From Podospora anserina (taxonomy: Eukaryota), in NCBI GenBank assembly GCA_017654855.1, contig CM030337.1, positions 2,666,001 through 2,730,000 of the forward strand: 64,000 nucleotides of DNA, written 5' to 3'. The notes under the pieces are model-generated. The model made no database searches. It saw only the letters and a program-made list of their open reading frames with translations, and had not been told where the DNA came from. This document shows positions 53,909-64,000 of the stretch, piece by piece. How positions within the stretch are numbered: the first letter of the stretch is position 1; each line of letters opens with the position of its first letter. Position numbers and translations under genes: made by a program.

Positions 53909-56900
53909 ATGGAGCCCTCAACGCCCATGCGCCCCATCCCCGGCGCTTACATTAACACTCCTGCGCCAAACACCACGCGACGACAACTCTTTACCAACAA
54001 CCCTGGGAATGGTGTGCCACCACCTATGGCACTCCCACCCGCGAACCCAGTTGGCCCCGGCACTCAGGCTCTCGTGACAGGCCAGCTTCCGGCACCGCCT
54101 GTTGCCCGCGCAGACGTCCCTCTGATCGAAACGGCTGGTCATGTTGTCAACTCAAATCTCCTCAACGATGAGAGCTATCCTGACCTGGACTCATACTGCC
54201 GACGTGTGTATCATCTCTACGAGCTTCCGATTATCAGACACTGACAGACCTTGAAATAGCCGGCGCTTCCTCCGAGTATGACATCCATCCGCCGGACAGG
54301 CCATGGGCGCCTTTTCAAAAGACCCATATGTACCAAATTCCTGACCAGATCTTCGACTTCCTTAATGGGGGAGAGGTCTTCACGAAACTAGGCCTCTTCC
54401 CACAGCTCGGATATGCCTGGGCCTCCATCGATAGTTCGCTCTTCCTCTGGGACTACACGCATCCCACGCCAGAACTCATCGGGTACGAGGAATTGACCAC
54501 CACCATCACCGCCGTTGCCCTCGTTGCGCCAAAGCCAGGCGTATTCGTCAAGACCATTACACATATTCTCGTCATCTCCACAACAACCGATGTTGTTCTT
54601 GTTGGCGTGGCGGCCGAGACCAACGCGTCGGGAGCCAAGAAGGTCACGCTCTACCAGACCAAGATGGCTGTGCACCGTGGTGGCAGTGATGTCAGTTACA
54701 TCGTCGGAACCGCCAATGGGCGCATCTTTGTCGGTGGCGAAACGGACACCGACATCCACGAAATTGTTTACCAGCAAGAAGAGAGATGGTTCTCTAGCAG
54801 ATGCAGCAAAGTCAACCATACCCATCCCGGCTGGTCCTCTGTTGTACCACTGACCAACTTGCCATTTGGCCCCCGGCCACACGAACACCTCGTGGGTCTC
54901 TATGTTGACGATACTCGAAACCTTGTGTACTCGCTATCTGACCGGTCGACCATCCGAACCTATCACATGGAGGGCCCCGAAAAGCTCACCAAGGTGATTG
55001 AGAAGGACAAGACCAGCATCCTCCGCGACTTTGCCCACTTGGCTGCCCCATCACCTCTCTTCACCGACAGGACTACCATTGTGTCACTCAGTCCCATCAC
55101 CGCCACCGAGACGTCGAAACTCCATCTCATGGCTCTCACCGATACTGGCTGTCGCCTTCTTCTCAGCGCCACGAGCGCTGCTTCATACACCATCGGCGGC
55201 GGGTCATCCACCCTTCCTCCTCAAAGTATGCAGCTGCAGTTTATCAAGTTCCCTCCCAGGGAGGAGTACCAACGGACTAGGGATCACAGACTCCAACCTA
55301 TCGAGACGGTACTAGACAAGACATCGCAGCTTCTTGAAATTAGCGCAATGGGTGTGCGCTTCCCTCCAGGTTACTTCTTTGACGTCGTCCGTGACAGGAC
55401 CGCTGCTTCGGACAGGCTTTTTATCTCGACTCCCGATACGGGCCGGATCAAGTTGACACAGCCTACCTCGGCGCTGAAATACTTTGAGCAGGGCACGTGG
55501 ATCGACCTCGGCGCCGGCAACCGAACCATTGAGATCGGTTTGACGACCAAGCCTTTCTCGGCAAACAGTCAGCCTCTAGGCTTCGGCAATGAGCTCGCTG
55601 TTCAGTTCGACCAGGCTCCCGGGGAGTTTGCGATTCTCACAAACACTGGCGTACACATCATTCGCCGGAGAAGGGTGGTGGATATGCTTGCGACTGCCCT
55701 CAGATCTGTCCAAGGTCAGGGCGACGACGTGCTAGAGCTGGAGGTTCGCCACTTTCTTGCTCAGTACGGGAGAGTGGAAACCTGCTCGGCGGCGCTGGCA
55801 GTAGCGTGTGGTCAGGGCAACGACTCGCGGACGGGTATTGGGCGATCCTCGGACACCGGCCTTGCGAACCTTGCCCGCTTGGTATTTGTGGAATACGGTG
55901 GCCAAGCCAGAGTGGCGGAGTCAGACGGGCGCATGGCCCCTCAGGATTCTGTTAGGTTATCGTCCCGTCACGATGCGTTGGTGCTGTACTTTACCCGCCT
56001 TGTCAGGACACTCTGGAAAACCAAGGTCGTCACGATTGCCAAGGACGGCAAGGAGGTGACCTCGACCGTAGACGTCAAGAAATTGGTGCAGGTTCAGGAA
56101 CAGGTCGACCGTCTGGAGAATTTCTTGGAGACCAACAAGGGCACGATCCAAGGCCTCTCTGGCCCTCCCGGTACTCTGACAAACAGAAATGACGAGATTG
56201 CTGCGCAAAAGGAACACCAGGCTTTCCACGGCATGCGTCAGCTCATGAAGAGTGTGACGGAGGGCATTTCCTTCGTCACTATGCTTTTTAGCGAGAGAGT
56301 TGCGGATATCTATGGTCGGCTCGAACCTGCCGACCAACAAAGGCTCTCTCAGCTTACCTATGAGCACCTGTTCTCCCAGAAGCCCGGAAAAGACCTCGCA
56401 AAGGTGTTGGTCAAAGCAATCGTCAACCGCAATATCGCTAATGGCGCCAATGTGGATACGGTCGCTGATGGCCTGAGGAGACGTTGCGGGAGCTTCTGCT
56501 CGCCTGACGATGTGGTCATCTTTAAGGCCCAAGAGCAGTTGCAGCGCGCGAGTGACCAGGTTGCTAATGCCAGCGCCGCTCGTCTGCTGCTGGCCGAGAG
56601 TTTGAGACTCTTTCAGGAGGTCGCTGGCAGTCTTTCTGCCGACAACCTCGAGAGGGCTGTTAACCAGTACATCGAGCTCAAGTACTACGCCGGTGCTATT
56701 CAGCTGTGCTTGGTGGTTGCCAAGGAAAAGGACCGGGGCAACACTGCATTGACATGGGTTATGGATAACAGGCCGGCGGGTGATGTTCGTGAGAGGGCGT
56801 ACAATGCCCGGAAGAGCTGCTACATCCTGATTCAGCAGATTCTTGACGCGCTCGAGGGTTACCTCTCCACGGAGCCTGAGACGATTGATGGGCGCCAAAC

Positions 56901-58274
56901 GGTCGCTGCCACCAAGAGGAAAGAGGCCTACGATGTTGTTAACAACTCGGATGATCAAGTGTTTCACATTGACCTGTACGAGTGGTACATCTCCAAGGGC
57001 TGGATTGATAGGCTACTTGCCATTGACTCGCCACACGTTGAGGCTTACCTTCAGCAGCTCTCTGAGCAGAATTACACTCACGCTGACCTCCTCTGCCGGT
57101 GGTATACTCACCGTAACTTCTTCTTCCAAGCGGCCCAAGTCCAAGCCAACATTGCCAAGTCGGACATGGCCATCCCCATCAAACACCGCATCAAGCTGCT
57201 TGGTTTGGCCAAGGCAAATGCCAGTGTCAACACTGCTGGCGTGAGCCGTCAGCAGCAACAAATGTTGAACCATGAGGTGTCTGAAATGCTCGAGATGGCG
57301 CACATCCAGGATGATTTGCTGCAGAGATTGCTCGCAGACGGCCGGATAGACAACAGCAGGAAGGCCGAGGTCAATGACCATTTGAACGGGCCGATCCTCA
57401 GCGTGAACGAGGTACGTTCGAGTCCGTTTCGTTTACCAACAAGGACTCGTTTTGCTAACGTTGTGTTTTCTAGCTCTACAATGACTACATTGACCAAGCC
57501 GGGTACTACGACCTCAGCCTCTTGATCTTCCACCTTGCCGACTTCCAAAACCACCGCGTCATCGAGGAGACGTGGAGCAACCTCATCCACCAGGTCCACA
57601 ACGAGACGGAGATCAAGACGGAGCTGTGGAACAAGCGCGACGGGAATGGGGTACCTGCCGAGCTGCGGGATCAGATCCCCGAGGCTGAGCCGCCGAGGCC
57701 GTGGGAGTGTGTAGCGCAGAACGTGCAGATTATTGCTCACCGCGCCTCGCTGGACAGTCTCGTCTTCCCCGTCGACAAGGTCATCCCAATGGTGTGCGGT
57801 TATGCGATTGAGTACAACCAGGATTTGGAGAGCCCCAACTGGCCGATGGCGCTGTTTCAGCAGCTTCATGTCCCGCATGCGCTTATTGTGCAGGTGTTGG
57901 AGGGGGTGCTGGATGCGCAGGAGGTTCCTTTTGTGGGGAGGAAGAGGAAGAATGTGGCTGGCTGGGTTGTTGCTGTTGTGGAGGATTGGGTGACTTCGAT
58001 TCAGATGAGGGGGGGGAGGAATTCGGCTGATGCTGGGGGGGTTGGGGTTTGGGTTAGTGAGTTGTTGGGACGGGTGGATGCGTTGCTCAGGCAGTTTCAG
58101 TCTGCGGGGGCGAGGACGGAGGCGGATAAGAAGTTGAGAGACGAGGCTGCGCAGTTGAGGGGGGAGTTGGCTACCGTCAAGAGGAGGGTCGATGGGCTTG
58201 TTGCGGCGGCGGCGCAGGGGGGGATGGGGGGGAGTGTGATGGGAGGTTTTGGTTTTAGGGGCGGGTTGGCTTAG
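53909..58274 (+). CDS. NUP170: Nucleoporin Nup170/Nup155; introns 54204-54259 and 57412-57473
   Basis: YPDLDSY, GLFPQLGYAWASIDSSLFLWDY, YQQEERWFSSRCSKVNHT, GNELAVQF, LRRRCGSFCSPDDVVIFKAQE. Confidence 0.96.
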
Positions 58275-58786
58275 GAGTCGACTGCTGCTGCTGAGGCTGT
58301 TGTGGAGAAGAAAGGGGTGTCACTACCGGGGCGGAGTAAACCCCGTGGGGGGTATCACGAGGAGGAAGGGAGGAGGAAGAAAACGAGGATGAGACTTGGG
58401 TAAACTTATGTGGGAGTTTGAAACATAGATCGATTTTAGGGGAAAGCGAGCGGGGAAAAAAAGTCGAGATGGGAAGGGAATTTGGGAGGTTGTTGTTGTT
58501 AGGAGCATGGCTTGTGTAGGCAGGGTTTTTGATGTAATGTGTTGTACATAGTTATGGTGTAGGGATTGTTGGACTTTTTCAATGTCTTGTTTTGTCTAGC
58601 TAGTTTGGGGTGTTTTATGGGATTGGGGAGGGGGAGGGAGAAGGGGGGGAGAAAAGAAAATAGACAGTTACGTGTCAATTTTGTGTGTGTTTGAGGGTGA
58701 TAGTGATGATTTGAGTGAGTGTGAGGTTGATGTTTGAATGGGGAGAAAATGTGGTTGGCATGTGTAAAGGAAAGAGAGAACCTTTA

Positions 58787-59134
58787 CGGAGTCCCTTATT
58801 TATCTTATCAGTGCCCCCCTCCCTACCTATTAACTTACCTTTGCTATAATATAGTAAAAAGCCTTAAGAGAAAAATAATAAGCGTTTCATTTATCTTCAA
58901 AAGCCCTTGAATTATTTTCCATAGCCTTCAAACTCTATTTTAAAGCCCTTAAACTATCTTTTAAGCCTTGTTACCTATCTTTTAAGGCCTCCTAATTATT
59001 TTTTTTAAAAACTTTCAACTATTTTTAGAGCCTATTAAATACCATTCAACCCTTAATAATTATACTTTATAATATAGTCAAATCCTATATTCAGGGGAGG
59101 GTTGGTAAGATAAATAGATAAATAGGGGGCTCCA
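58787..59134. mobile_element. MITE-like element (348 bp) flanked by TA, Tc1/mariner-type
   Basis: TA then CGGAGTCCCTTATTTATCT at the left; AGATAAATAGGGGGCTCCA then TA at the right (imperfect inverted repeat). Very AT- and TpA-rich core with repeated AGCC(C)TT units. Confidence 0.75.
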
Positions 59135-59371
59135 TATAGGTTCTCTCATTACACACTACCTGATCAGGAATGGCTATGTAATCGATGCTATATATCTGTA
59201 CTTGATGTGCTATCTCTTTTGAAAGGGAAGAAGGAAAGCAGAGAGAGAATGTGGGTATGCGTGTTGCTGAGGCTCTGAAAAAGGAGGTACATGAAAGAAT
59301 GTGTGAAATGCCATCGGGTGGGAACAAAGTGTGGGTTGGGTTGTTGTGTCATTCATGTCGGTGGAGGGTTT

Positions 59372-61651
59372 TTAAGCATGCGCCTCGACCATCGGCTGGA
59401 TGACAGGGACAACACGAGAGGGTGGTTGATGTTGGGTGTGGTTGGCGGTGTTGGTCTCGACCTGAGGGTACAAGTCCTCATGCGTAGTGATAATATCCCA
59501 CGTCGCAACCTTAAACTCATCCAGAGATCGCAAGTTCTGTACCTCTTCTTCTTCTGCTCTCGTCGCCTGCCGCGAAGGCATGTTGTTCTGACCTTTCGGG
59601 GTGATCTTCTTGAAGAATACGTCCTCGCGGGCATCCTCCGGATGCAGCCAGGCGAGAAGGTCTGGCTGCGAGTAATGCCGGAAGTTTGTCGCCTTGCTCG
59701 AGATGAGAACTATAATCTTGTCGTGCATTTGGAAGCCTGGTTGTTGGGAGGCGGCTTGGAGCTGTGGGGGGACTGTGATGTTGAGCTTGAACTTGGGGTC
59801 GATGGCCTCTCTGGGGTAGACTTCGAAGCTGTCGGCGCCTTCGTCAGGGAAGATCTGTGTTATGCCGTAGGTTGGATCAAGGTTGAAGATGGTAATGAAT
59901 TGGGTGAGGGCTTCCTCTTCTTGGTTTAGTATCCGGATAGGGCGGGGTTCGGTGTTTTTGAAGACGACCCCGTACTGCACCTTAGCGGGAAGCGTGGGGC
60001 TGTTGGACCTGTTGACATCGTGGATCCGTTTTATCTCGAATTCGTACCTAGGGTTCCACGGATTTGTGGAATCTTCACGGGCGGCGAGGTTGGTGAGACG
60101 CTGGTAAGGGGAGAGGTGTTGAACGATGAGGGAGAGTGTTCTGGCAATGCTGTCGTCGTTATGGTCGAGGCTGGGGACATTCTCTATTATCTCTGTGTTG
60201 TTTTTGTGGACCACAAGGCTTGTCCCATCCTCAGAGGGCTTGACGTAAAAGGTGTCAGGACAAGTGACTTCTGGGACAATATCCGGATCAGAGTGTAGTC
60301 TCAAGTCAGCCGTGGGGCGCAATAGGTCTTCCGGTAGCTCTCTCCAGGAGTTTTGGAGACGAGTGGCTGTTTGATCAGAAAGATTGACTGTGTCAACGTA
60401 GATGACGGGGCGATGGTTGCGTTGGACCAAAACGGCGAACCAACCAACCTTGGGAATATTGGCAAGGTTGGATGTGGTCGGAACTCGCGCAGCAGCCGTC
60501 ATGTTGGTGACCTCGAGAATGATAGCTTCGGCAGCTCGCTCCTCGTCAGGGTTGAGTAAGCCGAAGGTGAACTGATCCGGTCTGTAGAGGGCGAAGCGGT
60601 CCCCAACCTCGACCCCATGAGAAGCACCCCTGCTGATGGTGACAAGAGTGAATCCCACTTCTTTCTTTGTCTTTGTGACATTGCCCTGCATCACGCCTGT
60701 AAGAGCCGACTTGGTATTTGTGCCAAAAGCCAGGCGGTTGCGGTTTCCGAGAAGCATGGGTTGTTGAGGGAAAATGTTGTTGCGGATGCCGGACTTGGAT
60801 ACAAGGTGAGTGATGAGCATATCGTAGGTGATTGGGATGATGGAATCTTTCAGCGCCGTCAAGGTTTTGTCGAGATGGTATGTCATTGTCCCCCTTCCAC
60901 CAGTTTCATATGCGAATTCACTTGGCTGACAGGCTGCGAGCAGATTGTGCCTCCGGTTGCGATACAGCCAGCTCTCCTGCACTATCACGTTGCGGCCATC
61001 TCCATCACCACGGCCCACTTCATTGCCAGAATCAATCTCATCATCTGAGTCCGAATCGGGAAAAGGACACCGAATGCTAACACTCTCAAGTCCGGCGGCA
61101 TCATGACCATCCAAAGCATCATGTCCACCACCAGAGCCTGAATGCAAGCTGTCCCGATCGGCGCCTCCTGAATGACAACAGTCGAGGGACACAAATACCG
61201 TGAGACCCAGCTCATTCAGCCCATCCAAAACATTGGAAAGCTCAACATCCATCAGGGGCTCTCCCAGAGTGCACAACCCCTCATCGTAGGCACCTGCAGA
61301 CTTCAAACCACCATTCTCTGGCTTATGGTAGATTGTTTTGGTGCGCATGCCGTGGCCAGAGTAGTGCAGGAAGAAAAGGGCACCAGGGCCGCTCGCAACC
61401 GCTCTTCCGGCGACCTCCTCAATCAGGGCAAGGACATTGGTTTTGGTCGGCAAAGTTTCCGGTGTCGACCCATGAGGGGACGTGAGGGTATGAACATTGC
61501 CGGCTGGAACGCGGAGGGTGGTTGTGAGGAGTGTATCGATGATGTCTACATCCTTGACACAACCGTATAGATTTTTGACATTGTTGTACTGCCCGCGGTA
61601 GTTGTTGATGCCAATCAACACGGCAAATATCTTCTCAGGTGCGACGGCCAT
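59372..61651 (-). CDS. Caspase-family (peptidase C14) protease with a long C-terminal extension, 759 aa, intronless
   Basis: IFAVLIGINNY, NLYGCVKDV, PTKTNV, FFLHYSGHG (catalytic His), VSLDCCHSGG (catalytic Cys), LLAACQPSEFAYE, GTMTYHL, QQPMLLG; ATG at 61651. Confidence 0.93.
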   Translation of the reverse strand: MAVAPEKIFAVLIGINNYRGQYNNVKNLYGCVKDVDIIDTLLTTTLRVPAGNVHTLTSPHGSTPETLPTKTNVLALIEEVAGRAVASGPGALFFLHYSGHGMRTKTIYHKPENGGLKSAGAYDEGLCTLGEPLMDVELSNVLDGLNELGLTVFVSLDCCHSGGADRDSLHSGSGGGHDALDGHDAAGLESVSIRCPFPDSDSDDEIDSGNEVGRGDGDGRNVIVQESWLYRNRRHNLLAACQPSEFAYETGGRGTMTYHLDKTLTALKDSIIPITYDMLITHLVSKSGIRNNIFPQQPMLLGNRNRLAFGTNTKSALTGVMQGNVTKTKKEVGFTLVTISRGASHGVEVGDRFALYRPDQFTFGLLNPDEERAAEAIILEVTNMTAAARVPTTSNLANIPKVGWFAVLVQRNHRPVIYVDTVNLSDQTATRLQNSWRELPEDLLRPTADLRLHSDPDIVPEVTCPDTFYVKPSEDGTSLVVHKNNTEIIENVPSLDHNDDSIARTLSLIVQHLSPYQRLTNLAAREDSTNPWNPRYEFEIKRIHDVNRSNSPTLPAKVQYGVVFKNTEPRPIRILNQEEEALTQFITIFNLDPTYGITQIFPDEGADSFEVYPREAIDPKFKLNITVPPQLQAASQQPGFQMHDKIIVLISSKATNFRHYSQPDLLAWLHPEDAREDVFFKKITPKGQNNMPSRQATRAEEEEVQNLRSLDEFKVATWDIITTHEDLYPQVETNTANHTQHQPPSRVVPVIQPMVEAHA

Positions 61652-62830
61652 TGTTGCTGGGACTGAAAGCTTCCAGTCTTGTGTCTTGAGTGAGGTTGGT
61701 AATTTTGGGCCCGGCAGGTCAACGAGTGTATTGATGAAAGTGATCACCGGGCAGATTGTGTGGCAGGGAGCATGAGCTTATATCCAAGTCAGTAAGCGTT
61801 CGGAGAGGTAGGAATTCTCAAGACAGTGGATGTCTTTTCCCAGCCTCGAACAGTATGTGCGGGTCAGGTAACCAGTGCAAGACACGTCACCAAATTGTTG
61901 GTGTCAAGTTACCTTGGGAAAAACAGAAGGTACGTACCAATGTGATCATTTTGCCATTGATATTCCACGCGGCATCGGCGGCAGAAGAAAACATCCAACC
62001 GTTAGATGAACGACGGTCACCTTACATATCCCTACATGTAACTTCCAATGTAACTCTGACACTGGGTAGAAGAACTTCATGATTTGATGAACTGCATGCA
62101 TACCTGATATTTTTTTTGGCCGAAGAGTCTAGATCCTCTCTCTAAGGTAAAATCGATAGAACTGCGCCAAATAAATACCGAGGGCCACACATATGCCAGA
62201 ACTGTGCCCTTGCATTGGTCAAAAGAGATGTTTTGGAAAAGGCCAGCCAAGACATTGACATATGGCCTTGGCGAGTCAGGACTCGTTAGATATTCGACCT
62301 GTCAATGTTTAGTGGGTGTCCTGTCTGCCTAACCAAGTCGCAAAGTACCTGCCAGAGATCAATGGAAAAGTGTTACATCTGATAACTATCGGCCACAGAC
62401 TCACGAAAGTGAAAAGATGGAGTGCCCATGACCAAGATGAAAAGCAGGGCGAACACCCCACACATCTACTAAAGTTTCCGATAGCATACATTGGAATTTT
62501 GTTGATAATTCCAAGAGTAAAACGGCAAGAAACTGAGCTTGGCATAAGGTACGAGTAGATCAGGCGGTAATTGAGCATATGCTGGCTGCCCAAGCTGAAC
62601 TGCAAGGTTGGACATGCAGAATTTCATGACAGACCCGGAACAGTCATTTGTTGGATCCGAGTCTGTCATCCCATCCTCCAGAGTTTTCGATCCCAGTTTT
62701 GGCAACTTTCTGTCTGAGCTCGAGACGAAATTTACCCCAGCAGTGGCCTTTCTGCCTCCAGCTTTGATAGTTTGATCTGAGCATCGGCACACATTGTTTC
62801 TCCAAGACCACCAACCAACCATTAGAGGAG

Positions 62831-64000
62831 ATGGATGCTTTTTGGGAAAATCTCTCAAATTCCATGACCCTGCAAGACATAGAGTATGTTCTTGAACGTT
62901 TTCAAGAGCTCTTCTCTACGAGGCAGCCACACGACTCTCCTAGCATGGCTTATCTCCTGAGCCAGGAGAGTCTCACATGGCAGTTGCACTTTGCCAAAAC
63001 TATGGACAGTGCTTCTCTCCAAAAAGCGCTCGAAACAAGCGACGCTGCTCTCTGCCATTTGCAACTTGATGGGCCCAATGGCCCTGATTCTGACAAGAGC
63101 GCGGTCTATGAGAGTGTCGCCAACAGTCGCTACACTCACTTTCAAGCAACTGGAAGTTTTGACAGCATCAAAGCTGCCATAGACCACTGCATTGTGGCAC
63201 TCAACTTTGAGGAGGCCGGAACTGCACGGTGGAGTGCTCTAGCCGTTGCAAAATTGAGCATTTACCTGATGGATCGGGTTGTGATGCTCCCTACACAGGA
63301 GCACGTTTCCGAAGCCGTGGAATTCTTTCGAAAACACTCTTCTACAGCAAACAAGCTCAGTCCAACCTACCACGCGCAGTTCCTATCTAGATTCAGCGTG
63401 GCTCTGTTTCACAAGTGCATGTTCGCTTCTGACGAGCCTGCCATCATGGAGGAAGCTCTGAAGCTTGGTTATCGGTCCATCGACATCATTCCGCCTGAAG
63501 CTGCAACCATGGAATACACAAATTGTGCCGGGATTCTTCAGCAACGCTTCCAACAAACCCTTCAGTTCAGTGTACTTGAGCACGCTCTTCAGATCTCCCG
63601 GTTGGCTGTGAAACATGAAGCGTCGAAGGACGTTGCGGAGAAGGCTGGGAAGCTGACGGCTCTCGGCAACATGCTGGTAACCAAATGTCAAAGATACATT
63701 GAAACCAAATCTCGGGAAGCGTTGCAAGCCTTAGAGGAGGCAATCCAGCTGGGTCGAGAGGCCGTCCGCACTCTGCAGCCAATAGACCCAAGTTCCAATG
63801 CACTTCTCAGACACGAAAAGTCCCATACGCTCACTTTGATTGCGCCATGGTTCGCCCTCAAATCGAGTGTAACCGGAGATCTTCGGTGTGGCGAGGAAGG
63901 TGTTCGGCTTCTTCAACAGGCCCTGACACTGACCTCGGATGGGCATCCAGCACGTCACCGAATTCTTACCTACTTGGCTCACATCCTCGAAACTCAACAC
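62831..64000 (+). CDS. TPR-repeat protein, probably the N-terminus of a TPR-CHAT protease (partial, runs off the window)
   Basis: Translated by hand: 390 stop-free codons from ATG 62831 (MDAFWENLSNSMTLQDIEYV...). Degenerate repeats RYTHFQATGSFDSIKAAIDHCIVAL, QRFQQTLQFSVLEHALQISRLAV, ALEEAIQLGREAVRTL and TGDLRCGEEGVRLLQQALTLTSDGHPARHRILTYLAHIL. Confidence 0.85.
   Translation, partial: MDAFWENLSNSMTLQDIEYVLERFQELFSTRQPHDSPSMAYLLSQESLTWQLHFAKTMDSASLQKALETSDAALCHLQLDGPNGPDSDKSAVYESVANSRYTHFQATGSFDSIKAAIDHCIVALNFEEAGTARWSALAVAKLSIYLMDRVVMLPTQEHVSEAVEFFRKHSSTANKLSPTYHAQFLSRFSVALFHKCMFASDEPAIMEEALKLGYRSIDIIPPEAATMEYTNCAGILQQRFQQTLQFSVLEHALQISRLAVKHEASKDVAEKAGKLTALGNMLVTKCQRYIETKSREALQALEEAIQLGREAVRTLQPIDPSSNALLRHEKSHTLTLIAPWFALKSSVTGDLRCGEEGVRLLQQALTLTSDGHPARHRILTYLAHILETQH

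What the first reader, a model, noticed from the sequence alone, without database searches (positions are those of the whole stretch)
59372..64000. Head-to-head caspase-like protease and TPR(-CHAT) gene pair: candidate fungal proteolytic immune or cell-death cascade
Seen: two long intronless genes diverge from a 1179-bp shared intergenic region (61652-62830). One is a C14 protease with an intact His/Cys dyad. The other carries TPR repeats of the RF..TG...L..AI...R.AV..T..DHP.R...L..L type. A MITE separates the pair from the housekeeping block. Established: in fungi this TPR type is typically N-terminal to a CHAT protease. Fungal non-self systems are often two-gene sensor/effector units, such as NWD2/HET-s and gasdermin-protease pairs. 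In bacteria a SAVED-CHAT protease activates a co-encoded caspase-like protease by cleavage. Inference: the TPR protein senses a ligand and its CHAT domain clips the neighbouring caspase to trigger cell death. I do not know of such a cascade being characterised in fungi. The CHAT domain lies beyond the window and is not observed.
Basis: partly seen in the sequence, partly recalled or inferred. Interest (0 to 1): 0.85.

Follow-up and report, generated by a model that had tools for sequence, protein, structure and literature searches.

The report
Known gasdermin-activating protease beside uncharacterised caspase
One gene of the pair is the already published Podospora anserina TPR-CHAT protease Q2L-6, which cuts a gasdermin encoded just past the window, and the other is an unstudied caspase-like protease that repeatedly sits next to such CHAT genes in fungi and bacteria and may be an overlooked third member of that cell-death module.

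Summary
Two intron-free genes diverge from 61652-62830. One is a 759-aa C14 protease with His100/Cys159. The other is the first 390 codons of a helical-repeat protein.

The window is Podospora anserina chromosome 6. Two published primers for the "836-bp promoter of Q2L-6" match exactly at 61995-62015 and 62809-62830. So the + strand gene is Pa_6_6610 (Q2L-6). It is 1005 aa, with its CHAT domain at 723-1005, beyond the window. PMC8851545 showed that this CHAT domain processes the gasdermin Q1-6 (Pa_6_6615), also beyond the window. The CHAT prediction was right, but the gene is already characterised and its shown substrate is a gasdermin.

The C14 gene is PODANS_6_6600. I found nothing on it in the library searched. 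It belongs to a large family shared by fungi, bacteria and archaea: C14 plus a roughly 420-aa beta-rich module.

- Linkage to CHAT: 6 of 8 Q2L-6-clade CHAT genes share a locus or contig with a family member.
- 22 of 80 metagenome loci and 8 of 78 prokaryote genome loci hold a CHAT gene in the flanks. Some form operons resembling the SAVED-CHAT/PCaspase cascade.
- Most cyanobacterial members stand alone.
- Cleavage of the C14 protein by CHAT is untested. A complex prediction gave only weak support.

The parts
59372..61651 (-). CDS of the C14 caspase-like protease PODANS_6_6600 (759 codons plus stop), with no intron in the CDS
   Evidence: The ORF is. Pfam Peptidase_C14 scores E=4.2e-14. It is 99.9% identical (1 difference, I489M) to P0100, named 'uncharacterized protein PODANS_6_6600'. 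Collinear contigs of 4 runs cover it.
61352..61354 (-). Codon of the catalytic His100 (HYSGHG)
   Evidence: Coordinates. Invariant in 23 of 23 and in 167 of 168.
61175..61177 (-). Codon of the catalytic Cys159 (DCCHSGG). Asp157, two residues before it, is also invariant.
   Evidence: Coordinates. Invariant in 23 of 23 and in 168 of 168.
60971..61171 (-). Flexible linker after the catalytic Cys (residues 161-227), holding conserved Arg194 and Arg220. These are candidate maturation or cleavage sites.
   Evidence: pLDDT is below 50 for residues 161-189 and 198-227. R194 is kept in 160 of 168 and R220 in 134 of 168 members.
59462..60739 (-). Beta-rich C-terminal module (residues 305-730) with no Pfam model
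   Evidence: The AF2 model of this part has pLDDT 74.9 and pTM 0.76, and is mostly strands. No convincing PDB match was found: the best Foldseek E is 6.6e-4 with TM 0.15. The profile finds 6006 cluster representatives at E<=0.001. Atlas look-alikes are DUF4384-type clusters, score 0.94, which is a lead only.
59525..59632 (-). Second disordered linker (residues 674-709) with near-invariant Arg694 (59570-59572), just before the last strand (713-723)
   Evidence: pLDDT is below 50 for 674-709. Position 694 is R in 137 and K in 13 of 168 members.
61652..62830 (.). Shared 1179-bp divergent intergenic and promoter region. 61995-62830 is the published 836-bp 'promoter region of Q2L-6'.
   Evidence: for the ORFs. 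Exact primer matches are, with primer sequences taken from the methods passage of PMC8851545.
61777..61937 (-). 161-nt intron in the 5' leader of the C14 transcript
   Evidence: One contig of run X5 skips 61777-61937 and continues to 62010. On the minus strand the skipped part starts GTACGT and ends AG.
62831..64000 (+). First 390 of 1005 codons of Q2L-6 / Pa_6_6610 (the helical TPR-like region). The CHAT domain lies beyond the window.
   Evidence: The ORF is. It is 100% identical to residues 1-390 of P0061. CHAT is at 723-1005 in P0061 and P0001. Identity with the published gene rests on the primers.
58771..59150 (.). MITE-like AT-rich element with imperfect terminal inverted repeats, lying between the nucleoporin gene and the C14 gene
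   Evidence: Inverted repeats sit at 58771-58805/59116-59150 (35 nt, 86%) and 58797-58820/59093-59116. GC is 0.34-0.38 here. Only one copy of the arm was found in the window.

Best explanation
**What it is.** The region is one end of a Podospora anserina regulated-cell-death locus.
- The plus-strand gene is Q2L-6 (Pa_6_6610), a cytosolic protease with an N-terminal TPR-like region and a C-terminal CHAT domain.
- Its shown activity is to cut the inhibitory end off the gasdermin Q1-6 (Pa_6_6615), encoded tail-to-tail just beyond the window. This releases a pore-former that kills the cell.
- The minus-strand gene, PODANS_6_6600, is an uncharacterised metacaspase/orthocaspase-type C14 protease. 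It has an intact His/Cys dyad, an acidic residue at the S1 position (so I infer Arg/Lys specificity), two flexible linkers with conserved Arg, and a roughly 420-residue beta-rich module of unknown role.

**My reading (inferred, not shown).** The C14 gene is a third, overlooked member of the same module. The two caspase-fold proteases act in one pathway. The most likely order is that Q2L-6, once relieved of autoinhibition by its TPR part, cleaves a linker of the C14 zymogen and activates it. This would parallel SAVED-CHAT activating PCaspase in bacteria, so that C14 adds a second, broader proteolytic output beside or upstream of gasdermin pore formation.

**Odds by step.**
- Identity of the genes: about 0.97.
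- Functional coupling of C14 with Q2L-6: about 0.5.
- The direction CHAT to C14: about 0.3.
For: **Identity.**
- Published primers match exactly and span 836 bp.
- P0061 is 100% identical over 390 aa, is 1005 aa long, and has CHAT at E=1e-30.
- The C14 protein is 758 of 759 identical to PODANS_6_6600.
- The published function comes from passages of PMC8851545.

**Linkage in fungi.**
- In the CHAT-domain tree the Q2L-6 clade has 8 rows with SH-aLRT 97.
- Six of the 8 have a C14-family gene in the same locus or on a contig of identical length.
  - The window itself.
  - P0002 with P0021, both on a 97228-bp contig.
  - P0070 with P0022, both on a 1364453-bp contig of the same named Ilyonectria.
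  - L001 and L002, head-to-head with gaps of 506 and 85 bp.
  - L042, in tandem.
- Of 13 fungal-like C14 loci from metagenomes, 7 hold a CHAT gene. These amount to 5 independent loci, because L002/L003 and L041/L045 are near-duplicates.

**Linkage in prokaryotes.**
- 22 of 80 metagenome loci have a CHAT ORF in the flanks at E<1e-5. Among loci with at least 8 kb of flank the count is 20 of 40.
- 12 of the 80 are directly adjacent, with a gap of 542 bp or less.
- Pfam confirmed CHAT in 9 of 9 tested and TPR plus CHAT in 7 of 9.
- 8 of 78 full-length family loci of named genomes have a CHAT, and 5 of them have gaps of 41-360 bp.
- Two all-adjacent CHAT clades of 5 rows each appear in the tree, with support 100 and 99.

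**Operon parallel.**
- L081 encodes, in order, TPR-CHAT, a 192-aa sigma-like protein (Sigma70_r4_2, E=1.6e-4, below the cut-off), a 300-aa protein (zf-HC2, E=0.03) and the C14 protein. Gaps between them are 24-65 bp.
- The same two small genes recur in L019, L029, L049, L050 and L051.

**Other points.**
- The published deletion kept 61995-62830 as a flank, so the C14 gene stayed in every strain used. Its role was therefore never excluded (inference).
- Both genes are covered by contigs of runs guessed to be RNA.
- Complex prediction of C14 residues 8-724 with the CHAT domain 723-1005 of P0001 gave 'weak support'.
  - The score was 0.41 and the best of 3 controls 0.01.
  - The runs agree in at least 50% of contacts, and the partner's pLDDT is at least 72.
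  - The mark was reached by 51 of 78 solved complexes and 2 of 108 mismatches.
  - At 0.60 or under it was reached by only 5 of those 78 and by all 4 mismatches that passed of 180.
  - So such a pass is more often wrong than right unless the guess was already likely.
Against: **No result here shows cleavage or binding.**

**Most family members stand alone.**
- 58 of 80 metagenome loci and 70 of 78 genome loci have no CHAT in the fetched flanks.
- Among the many cyanobacterial genome loci only one (L086) has one.

**The base rate of CHAT genes is high.**
- The five genomes checked hold 21, 28, 5, 14 and 25 CHAT matches in 4.8-8.3 Mb.
- A CHAT gene within a 20-kb span is therefore expected in roughly 2-10% of loci.
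- The 8 of 78 'within 10 kb' is only about twice chance. Only the tight adjacency stands out.
- These five genomes were chosen because they were positive.

**Bacterial C14-adjacent CHATs do not form one clade.** They are scattered over several.

**The conserved Arg residues do not depend on a CHAT neighbour.** They are kept family-wide, which fits self-processing by an Arg-specific C14 protease as well as it fits cleavage by CHAT.

**The simplest reading of the published assay is direct cleavage.** The CHAT domain alone sufficed for gasdermin processing in lysates.

**Possible decay in sibling species.**
- The C14 orthologues are annotated as 439 aa and 494 aa proteins lacking the catalytic part.
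- This may be annotation, or it may be decay.

**The closest C14 homologue outside Podospora shows no link.** For P0017 (Triangularia setosa, 50% identity) no CHAT hit on a contig of the same length was seen.

**The weak complex score may be an artefact.** Both chains have the caspase fold, and the model may be remembering caspase-type dimers.
Confidence: 0.5

Rival explanations
1. The two genes are independent neighbours. PODANS_6_6600 is a stand-alone orthocaspase-type protease that matures itself at its conserved Arg sites. It serves some other stress or death pathway. It sits beside Q2L-6 only because cell-death and conflict genes gather in the same genomic islands.
For: - 70 of 78 prokaryote genome loci and 58 of 80 metagenome loci of the family have no CHAT neighbour.
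- CHAT genes are numerous in the genomes checked, at 5-28 per genome.
- The Arg sites are conserved regardless of neighbour.
- The published two-gene description works without the C14 gene.
Against: - 6 of 8 Q2L-6-clade CHAT genes are linked to a C14-family gene.
- Head-to-head adjacency with gaps of 85-506 bp recurs in L001-L003, where the proteins are only 32-45% identical to the window's or its relatives'.
- 12 of 80 metagenome loci and 5 of 78 genome loci are directly adjacent. Two neighbours out of several thousand genes would give under 1% by chance (my estimate).
- A four-gene operon is conserved.
Confidence: 0.3
2. The proteases are coupled, but in the other order or in parallel. Either the Arg-specific C14 protease cuts the low-complexity linker between the TPR and CHAT parts of Q2L-6 and so releases the active CHAT domain. 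Or C14 and CHAT each cut the gasdermin Q1-6 in response to different signals.
For: - The authors of PMC8851545 had to truncate Q2L-6 to residues 701-1005 because they expected the full protein to be repressed. Something must relieve that repression in vivo.
- Q2L-6 has a variable Pro/Arg-rich stretch before the CHAT domain (sequence).
- In bacteria both Peptidase C14 (n=15) and CHAT (n=23) proteases lie next to gasdermins, and some gasdermins have more than one adjacent protease (passage of bioRxiv 10.1101/2021.06.07.447441).
- In L002 and L003 a second C14 paralogue sits just downstream of the CHAT gene, where I infer the gasdermin lies in Podospora.
Against: - The only experimentally shown order for a CHAT/C14 pair is CHAT first.
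- There is no evidence here on the specificity of either enzyme.
- I could not test whether the loci with two C14 genes lack a gasdermin, because no gasdermin probe was available.
Confidence: 0.15

Closest known systems
Q2L-6 / Q1-6 two-gene cluster of Podospora anserina (Pa_6_6610 / Pa_6_6615), PMC8851545
   Same: It is the same gene. The published promoter primers match the window exactly. The length of 1005 aa and the CHAT domain at the C-terminus agree.
   Different: The published unit has two genes, a TPR-CHAT protease and a gasdermin. The divergent C14 gene PODANS_6_6600 is not mentioned in the passages I saw, and no held paper contains 'Pa_6_6600'. The supplementary datasets could not be read.
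SAVED-CHAT / PCaspase proteolytic cascade of the Haliangium ochraceum type III-B CRISPR locus (bioRxiv 10.1101/2023.06.23.546230)
   Same: A CHAT protease and a Peptidase C14 protease are encoded in one cluster. There the CHAT protease cleaves and activates the C14 protease, which then cuts many proteins. Bacterial relatives of the window's C14 gene lie in operons with a CHAT gene and a sigma-like gene.
   Different: The sensor there is a cA3-binding SAVED domain and here it is a TPR-like region. That system has a sigma factor, an inhibitor and a kinase but no gasdermin. Whether PCaspase belongs to the same C14 subfamily with the C-terminal module was not tested.
Bacterial gasdermin operons with caspase-like proteases (bioRxiv 10.1101/2021.06.07.447441)
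   Same: A gasdermin sits next to Peptidase C14 and/or CHAT proteases, sometimes more than one, and often fused to TPR repeats.
   Different: Those are bacterial anti-phage operons, with no divergent eukaryotic promoter. A serial action of two proteases is not described in the passages seen.
Craspase: type III-E gRAMP with TPR-CHAT (Csx29)
   Same: The TPR-then-CHAT architecture is the same, as is the link to a sigma factor in the operon (search listing, and a passage of the SAVED-CHAT preprint).
   Different: Craspase is activated by an RNA-guided Cas complex, and its substrate Csx30 is not a protease.
Metacaspases and cyanobacterial orthocaspases (Yca1, AtMC4/9; orthocaspases with DUF4384)
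   Same: The p20-type fold and the His/Cys dyad match. The profile hits metacaspase chains at E=1.6e-33 to 5e-26 and the fold matches them. Most prokaryote relatives come from filamentous cyanobacteria.
   Different: This family has a conserved roughly 420-aa beta-rich C-terminal module in place of a classical p10-only tail. Pfam DUF4384 was not called in any of the 9 family members scanned. The DUF4384 link is only an Atlas look-alike. I saw the orthocaspase papers only as a search listing.

Membership tests
Peptidase C14 (caspase / metacaspase / orthocaspase) | Match to the family profile above the curated cut-off | tested here: met
   PF00656 scores 53.2 bits against a cut-off of 21.4, E=4.2e-14. 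The PADLOC 'caspase' model PDLC02987 scores E=9.6e-24. The NCBIfam caspase_w_EACC1 model scores only 27.8 bits against a cut-off of 140, so the protein is not a member of that subfamily.
Peptidase C14 (caspase / metacaspase / orthocaspase) | Catalytic His-Cys dyad in the HxxGHG and DxCHSG contexts | tested here: met
   The motifs are HYSGHG with His100 and DCCHSGG with Cys159. They are invariant in 23 of 23 and in 167 and 168 of 168.
Peptidase C14 (caspase / metacaspase / orthocaspase) | Caspase-hemoglobinase fold | tested here: met
   The AF2 model has mean pLDDT 72.3. The top Foldseek PDB hits are metacaspases 9, 4 and Yca1 at probability 1.00.
Peptidase C14 (caspase / metacaspase / orthocaspase) | Cleavage after Arg/Lys and maturation by cleavage | not testable with these tools
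   Only indirect evidence exists: invariant Asp157 two residues before the Cys, and conserved Arg in disordered linkers. That this Asp forms the S1 pocket is recalled from metacaspase structures.
CHAT protease (PF12770), for the + strand gene | CHAT domain with His/Cys dyad | tested here: met
   The domain is not in the window. In P0061, which is 100% identical over the 390 window residues, CHAT lies at 723-1005 with E=1e-30. H867 and C912 are invariant in 20 of 20.
TPR repeat protein | Match to TPR repeat profiles | tested here: inconclusive
   There is no Pfam TPR hit on the fragment at E<=0.1 or on the full protein at E<=0.01. Relatives at 24-29% identity carry TPR_10, TPR_12 or TPR-S. The repeat motif shows in the consensus. 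The paper calls the region TPR.
Fungal gasdermin / HET-Q2-like protease cluster | A gasdermin (het-Q1 homologue) gene within 10 kb of the protease gene | not testable with these tools
   The gasdermin gene lies beyond 64000 and no whole genome is held. This feature rests on the published description of Pa_6_6615 together with the exact primer matches.
CHAT-to-C14 proteolytic cascade (SAVED-CHAT / PCaspase type) | CHAT and C14 protease genes in one conserved cluster | tested here: met
   The window; 6 of 8 Q2L-6-clade genes; 22 of 80 and 8 of 78 loci.
CHAT-to-C14 proteolytic cascade (SAVED-CHAT / PCaspase type) | A cyclic-oligoadenylate-sensing SAVED domain on the CHAT protease | tested here: not met
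   Pfam finds only CHAT in Q2L-6. The N-terminal part is helical and TPR-like.
CHAT-to-C14 proteolytic cascade (SAVED-CHAT / PCaspase type) | The CHAT protease cleaves and thereby activates the C14 protease | not testable with these tools
   There is only a weak complex prediction, score 0.41 against a best control of 0.01. It needs biochemistry.
MITE | Short non-coding element with terminal inverted repeats, present in many copies | tested here: inconclusive
   Terminal inverted repeats are present, 35 nt at 86% complementarity. Only one copy was found in the 64-kb window. The genome could not be searched.

The most novel reading that the evidence does not exclude
Fungi have an initiator-executioner cascade of two caspase-fold proteases, inherited as a gene pair from bacterial TPR-CHAT / PCaspase-type operons. 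In it the sensor protease Q2L-6 cuts the PODANS_6_6600 zymogen at its conserved Arg linkers. The activated C14 protease then carries out part of the killing, including or alongside maturation of the gasdermin Q1-6. The published 'two-gene' pyroptosis-like cluster would then be a three-gene module.
Probability: 0.25. Interest if true: 0.8.

Novelty: new variant of a known kind. Interest (0 to 1): 0.5.

Why it matters
Fungal gasdermin clusters are described as contracted pathways in which one receptor-protease directly cuts one pore-former. If the conserved C14 neighbour takes part, the Podospora locus would hold a two-step protease cascade. That would bring fungal regulated cell death closer to animal initiator/executioner caspases and to the bacterial SAVED-CHAT/PCaspase system.

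It would also change how the published Q2L-6/Q1-6 experiments are read, because the C14 gene was present in all the strains used.

The question can be tested directly in an established, harmless model fungus with existing strains.

Separately, the C14-plus-beta-module family is large, with 6006 cluster representatives. It spans fungi, bacteria and archaea, and its C-terminal module has no Pfam model.

Tried and rejected
**Searches that could not run or found nothing.**
- Whole-genome look-up of the window: no genome is held. The ORF could not be extended directly, so I used identical and near-identical database proteins.
- Searching the records behind L001, L002, L041, L042 and L075 for the Pfam gasdermin family: those records are not held. 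I had no gasdermin sequence or usable model. Whether the other fungal C14/CHAT loci also hold a gasdermin therefore stays open. ORF listings downstream of the CHAT genes in L001 and L002 showed no obvious gene.
- Earlier notes of this scan on this genome or sequence: none.

**Tests that were negative or uninformative.**
- A shared adaptor or amyloid-type motif between the two proteins: BLASTP found nothing, best E=1.5.
- Function of the C14 C-terminal module: Pfam gave only a sub-threshold FlgT_C match. The PDB fold search gave no convincing match, with TM about 0.15. The module remains of unknown role.
- A single C14-dedicated CHAT clade in bacteria: rejected, because adjacent CHATs are scattered over several clades. 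This was a quick tree without a mixture model, with long branches flagged, built from 120 rows. I left out near-duplicate loci L003, L033 and L045, and loci L081, L134, L138 and L160, which are represented through their genomes.
- Hyper-variability of the het-gene type: orthologues across the Podospora species complex are 93-98.7% identical. Nothing unusual was seen, but no population data were examined.

**RNA evidence.**
- No RNA holder is listed as such. The runs laid are 'RNA?' by the tool's guess.
- Parts of the intergenic region without cover say nothing.

Full report
**What is in the sequence**

The window carries a minus-strand ORF at 59372..61747. Its first ATG is at 61651, which gives 759 aa. 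A plus-strand ORF starts at 62831 and is still open at 64000, giving 390 aa. The two ATGs are 1179 bp apart.

The minus-strand protein matches Pfam Peptidase_C14 at E=4.2e-14. It has His100 and Cys159 in the motifs HYSGHG and DCCHSGG. These are invariant in 23 of 23 relatives. Across 168 family members His100 is kept in 167 and Cys159 in 168.

An AlphaFold model has mean pLDDT 72.3. It matches metacaspase crystal structures in its first roughly 300 residues. It is disordered at 161-189, 198-227 and 674-709.

The plus-strand fragment has no Pfam hit of its own.

Between this pair and a nucleoporin gene lies a roughly 380-bp AT-rich element with imperfect inverted ends. I found one copy only in the window.

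**Which genes these are**

A search with the 390-aa fragment among longer proteins returned 15 hits, and 13 of them carry a CHAT domain. The best hit is 1005 aa with CHAT at 723-1005, E=3.3e-31. Its cluster holds Podospora proteins.

One member, P0061, is 100% identical to the window over all 390 residues. It has the same CHAT domain at E=1e-30.

A literature search led to PMC8851545. I read passages only, and the supplements are closed. The paper describes a two-gene cluster on P. anserina chromosome 6.
[quoted passage not shown] The authors used residues 701-1005.
- Pa_6_6615 (Q1-6) is a gasdermin.
- The CHAT domain processed tagged Q1-6 in mixed lysates and gave a barrage reaction.

The two primers the paper gives for the '836-bp promoter region of Q2L-6' match the window exactly at 61995-62015 and 62809-62830. 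That span is 836 bp and ends at the base before the ATG. The plus-strand gene is therefore Q2L-6 itself.

The gasdermin lies beyond 64000. The deletion cassette used both genes' promoter regions as outer flanks, so I infer that the two genes are tail-to-tail.

The C14 protein differs by one residue (I489M) from 'uncharacterized protein PODANS_6_6600'. The same T>C at 60185 appears in contigs of all four runs laid.

No held paper contains Pa_6_6600. The passages on CHAT in two reviews and one het-gene paper do not mention a C14 partner.

**Transcripts**

The tool guesses that the four runs laid are RNA. Their contigs cover the C14 gene as discrete 2.1-2.7-kb pieces that are collinear with the CDS.

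One contig skips 61777-61937. On the gene's strand that stretch begins GTACGT and ends AG, so it is a 5'-leader intron.

Two contigs of 3367 and 3352 nt start 125 and 110 nt upstream of the Q2L-6 ATG and run past the window end. This fits an unspliced 3018-nt CDS. So 'intronless' holds for both coding regions as far as I can see.

**The C14 family**

Relatives are alignable over the full length in Sordariomycetes and Orbiliomycetes. They are also alignable in many prokaryotes: filamentous cyanobacteria above all, and also Acidobacteriota, Chloroflexota, Planctomycetota, Rhodothermales and two archaeal MAGs.

The C-terminal roughly 420 residues fold into beta-rich domains, with pLDDT 74.9. I found no convincing solved relative and no Pfam model. 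A profile of this part finds 6006 cluster representatives at E<=0.001. Most are about 700 aa long with the module at about 300-710.

Conserved basic residues sit in the disordered linkers. R194 is kept in 160, R220 in 134, and R or K at 694 in 150, each of 168 members.

**Linkage to CHAT genes: evidence for**

Fungi:
- The 48-53%-identical Q2L-6 orthologue P0002 and the 37%-identical C14 homologue P0021 both come from a JGI contig of 97228 bp.
- P0070 and P0022 both come from a 1364453-bp contig of one named Ilyonectria.
- Metagenome loci L001, L002 and L003 repeat the head-to-head arrangement, with gaps of 85-506 bp. L042 has the pair in tandem.
- In a CHAT-domain tree these genes form one clade of 8 with Q2L-6. 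Six of the 8 are linked to a C14 gene and 2 are unknown.

All metagenome loci found with the C14 alignment:
- 22 of 80 have a CHAT ORF in the flanks at E<1e-5.
- Among loci with at least 8 kb of flank the count is 20 of 40.
- Pfam confirmed CHAT in 9 of 9 tested and TPR plus CHAT in 7 of 9.

Several bacterial loci form a four-gene operon of TPR-CHAT, a sigma-like protein, a possible anti-sigma protein and the C14 protein. The two small-gene assignments are below Pfam thresholds. [quoted passage not shown]

**Linkage to CHAT genes: evidence against**

- In named prokaryote genomes only 8 of 78 family loci have a CHAT gene within the flanks. Only one of the many cyanobacterial loci does.
- Five of the positive genomes carry 5-28 CHAT matches each. 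'Within 10 kb' is therefore only about twice what chance would give. Only the tight adjacency stands out: 5 of 78 genome loci and 12 of 80 metagenome loci, with gaps of 542 bp or less.
- Some loci are duplicates of one organism: L013 with L094, L072 with L111, L031 with L033, L002 with L003, and L041 with L045.
- Bacterial C14-adjacent CHATs fall into several clades.
- The Arg sites are conserved whether or not a CHAT gene is nearby. Self-processing explains them as well as cleavage by CHAT does.

**Direct test of contact**

I ran a complex prediction of C14 residues 8-724 with the CHAT domain 723-1005 of the 97%-identical P0001. It returned 'weak support', with a score of 0.41 and a best control of 0.01 out of 3. 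The runs agree in at least 50% of contacts and the partner's pLDDT is at least 72.

By the tool's calibration, the mark was reached by 51 of 78 solved complexes and 2 of 108 mismatches. At 0.60 or under it was reached by only 5 of those 78 and by all 4 mismatches that passed. So such a pass is more often wrong than right unless the guess was already likely. Both chains share the caspase fold, which may inflate the score.

**Reading**

- The gene identities are settled.
- The shown function of the locus is CHAT-mediated gasdermin activation.
- The new point is that an uncharacterised, transcribed C14 protease gene shares the promoter region with Q2L-6, and that this pairing recurs across the Q2L-6 clade and in bacterial operons.
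- The published deletion kept 61995-62830 and everything to its left. The C14 gene was therefore present in every strain and lysate, and its contribution was never excluded. This is my inference from the methods passage.
- I put functional coupling at about 0.5 and the specific order CHAT to C14 at about 0.3.
- Independent neighbours (0.3) and the reverse or parallel order (0.15) remain open.

**Novelty**

The CHAT gene and its gasdermin link are already known. A CHAT-to-C14 cascade is known in one bacterial system. A conserved C14 partner of a fungal gasdermin-activating TPR-CHAT protease was not found in the literature I could search. The supplementary tables of PMC8851545 could not be checked. 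I rate this a new variant of a known kind, of moderate interest, and directly testable.

Noticed in passing
L002:1-1139, L003:1-1116, L041:12650-13576, L045:12659-13585, L075:7720-8608: A gene of the fungal family DUF6594 (PF20237, E=1e-12 to 3e-24 on its exons) lies next to C14-family genes in 5 fungal-like loci, which amount to 3 independent ones. It may be another recurrent partner or target of these proteases.
   Followed up: partly
L002:2654-11956 and L003:2672-11974: The Q2L-6-clade CHAT gene is flanked by two C14-family paralogues. One is head-to-head upstream. The other lies downstream on the same strand, in the place where I infer the gasdermin gene lies in Podospora.
   Followed up: partly
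L081:4576-12109; also L019, L029, L049, L050, L051, L138: A conserved bacterial four-gene operon encodes TPR-CHAT, a roughly 190-230-aa sigma-like protein, a roughly 300-aa protein with a weak zf-HC2 (anti-sigma-like) match, and the C14 protein. In L081, L134, L138 and L160 a second CHAT gene lies near the same C14 gene, on its other side in the first three and directly after the first CHAT gene in L160.
   Followed up: partly
L013:5836-7710 (identical to the CHAT domain of L094): A CHAT domain fused to an FGE-sulfatase domain lies directly after a C14-family gene in a Caldilineaceae genome.
   Followed up: no
window 60185: The window has T (Ile489), whereas contigs of all four runs laid and the reference protein PODANS_6_6600 have C (Met489). 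This is a strain difference or an error in the window.
   Followed up: yes
P0103, P0105, P0063 (database proteins): In two sibling species the annotated C14 orthologues are 439 and 494 aa and lack the catalytic part. One CHAT orthologue is 859 aa and lacks the first 146 residues. This may be annotation differences or gene decay.
   Followed up: partly
window 58880-59025: About five degenerate 21-bp tandem units lie inside the MITE-like element.
   Followed up: no
window 62094-62504: Low-depth contigs of run X1 lie in the shared intergenic region. One has a 54-nt skip with non-canonical ends, and one has an extra T after 62109. Their meaning is unclear.
   Followed up: no
window 54328-58274: The nucleoporin gene (Nucleoporin_N and Nucleoporin_C) is split between two reading frames near 57522, probably by an intron.
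   Followed up: no
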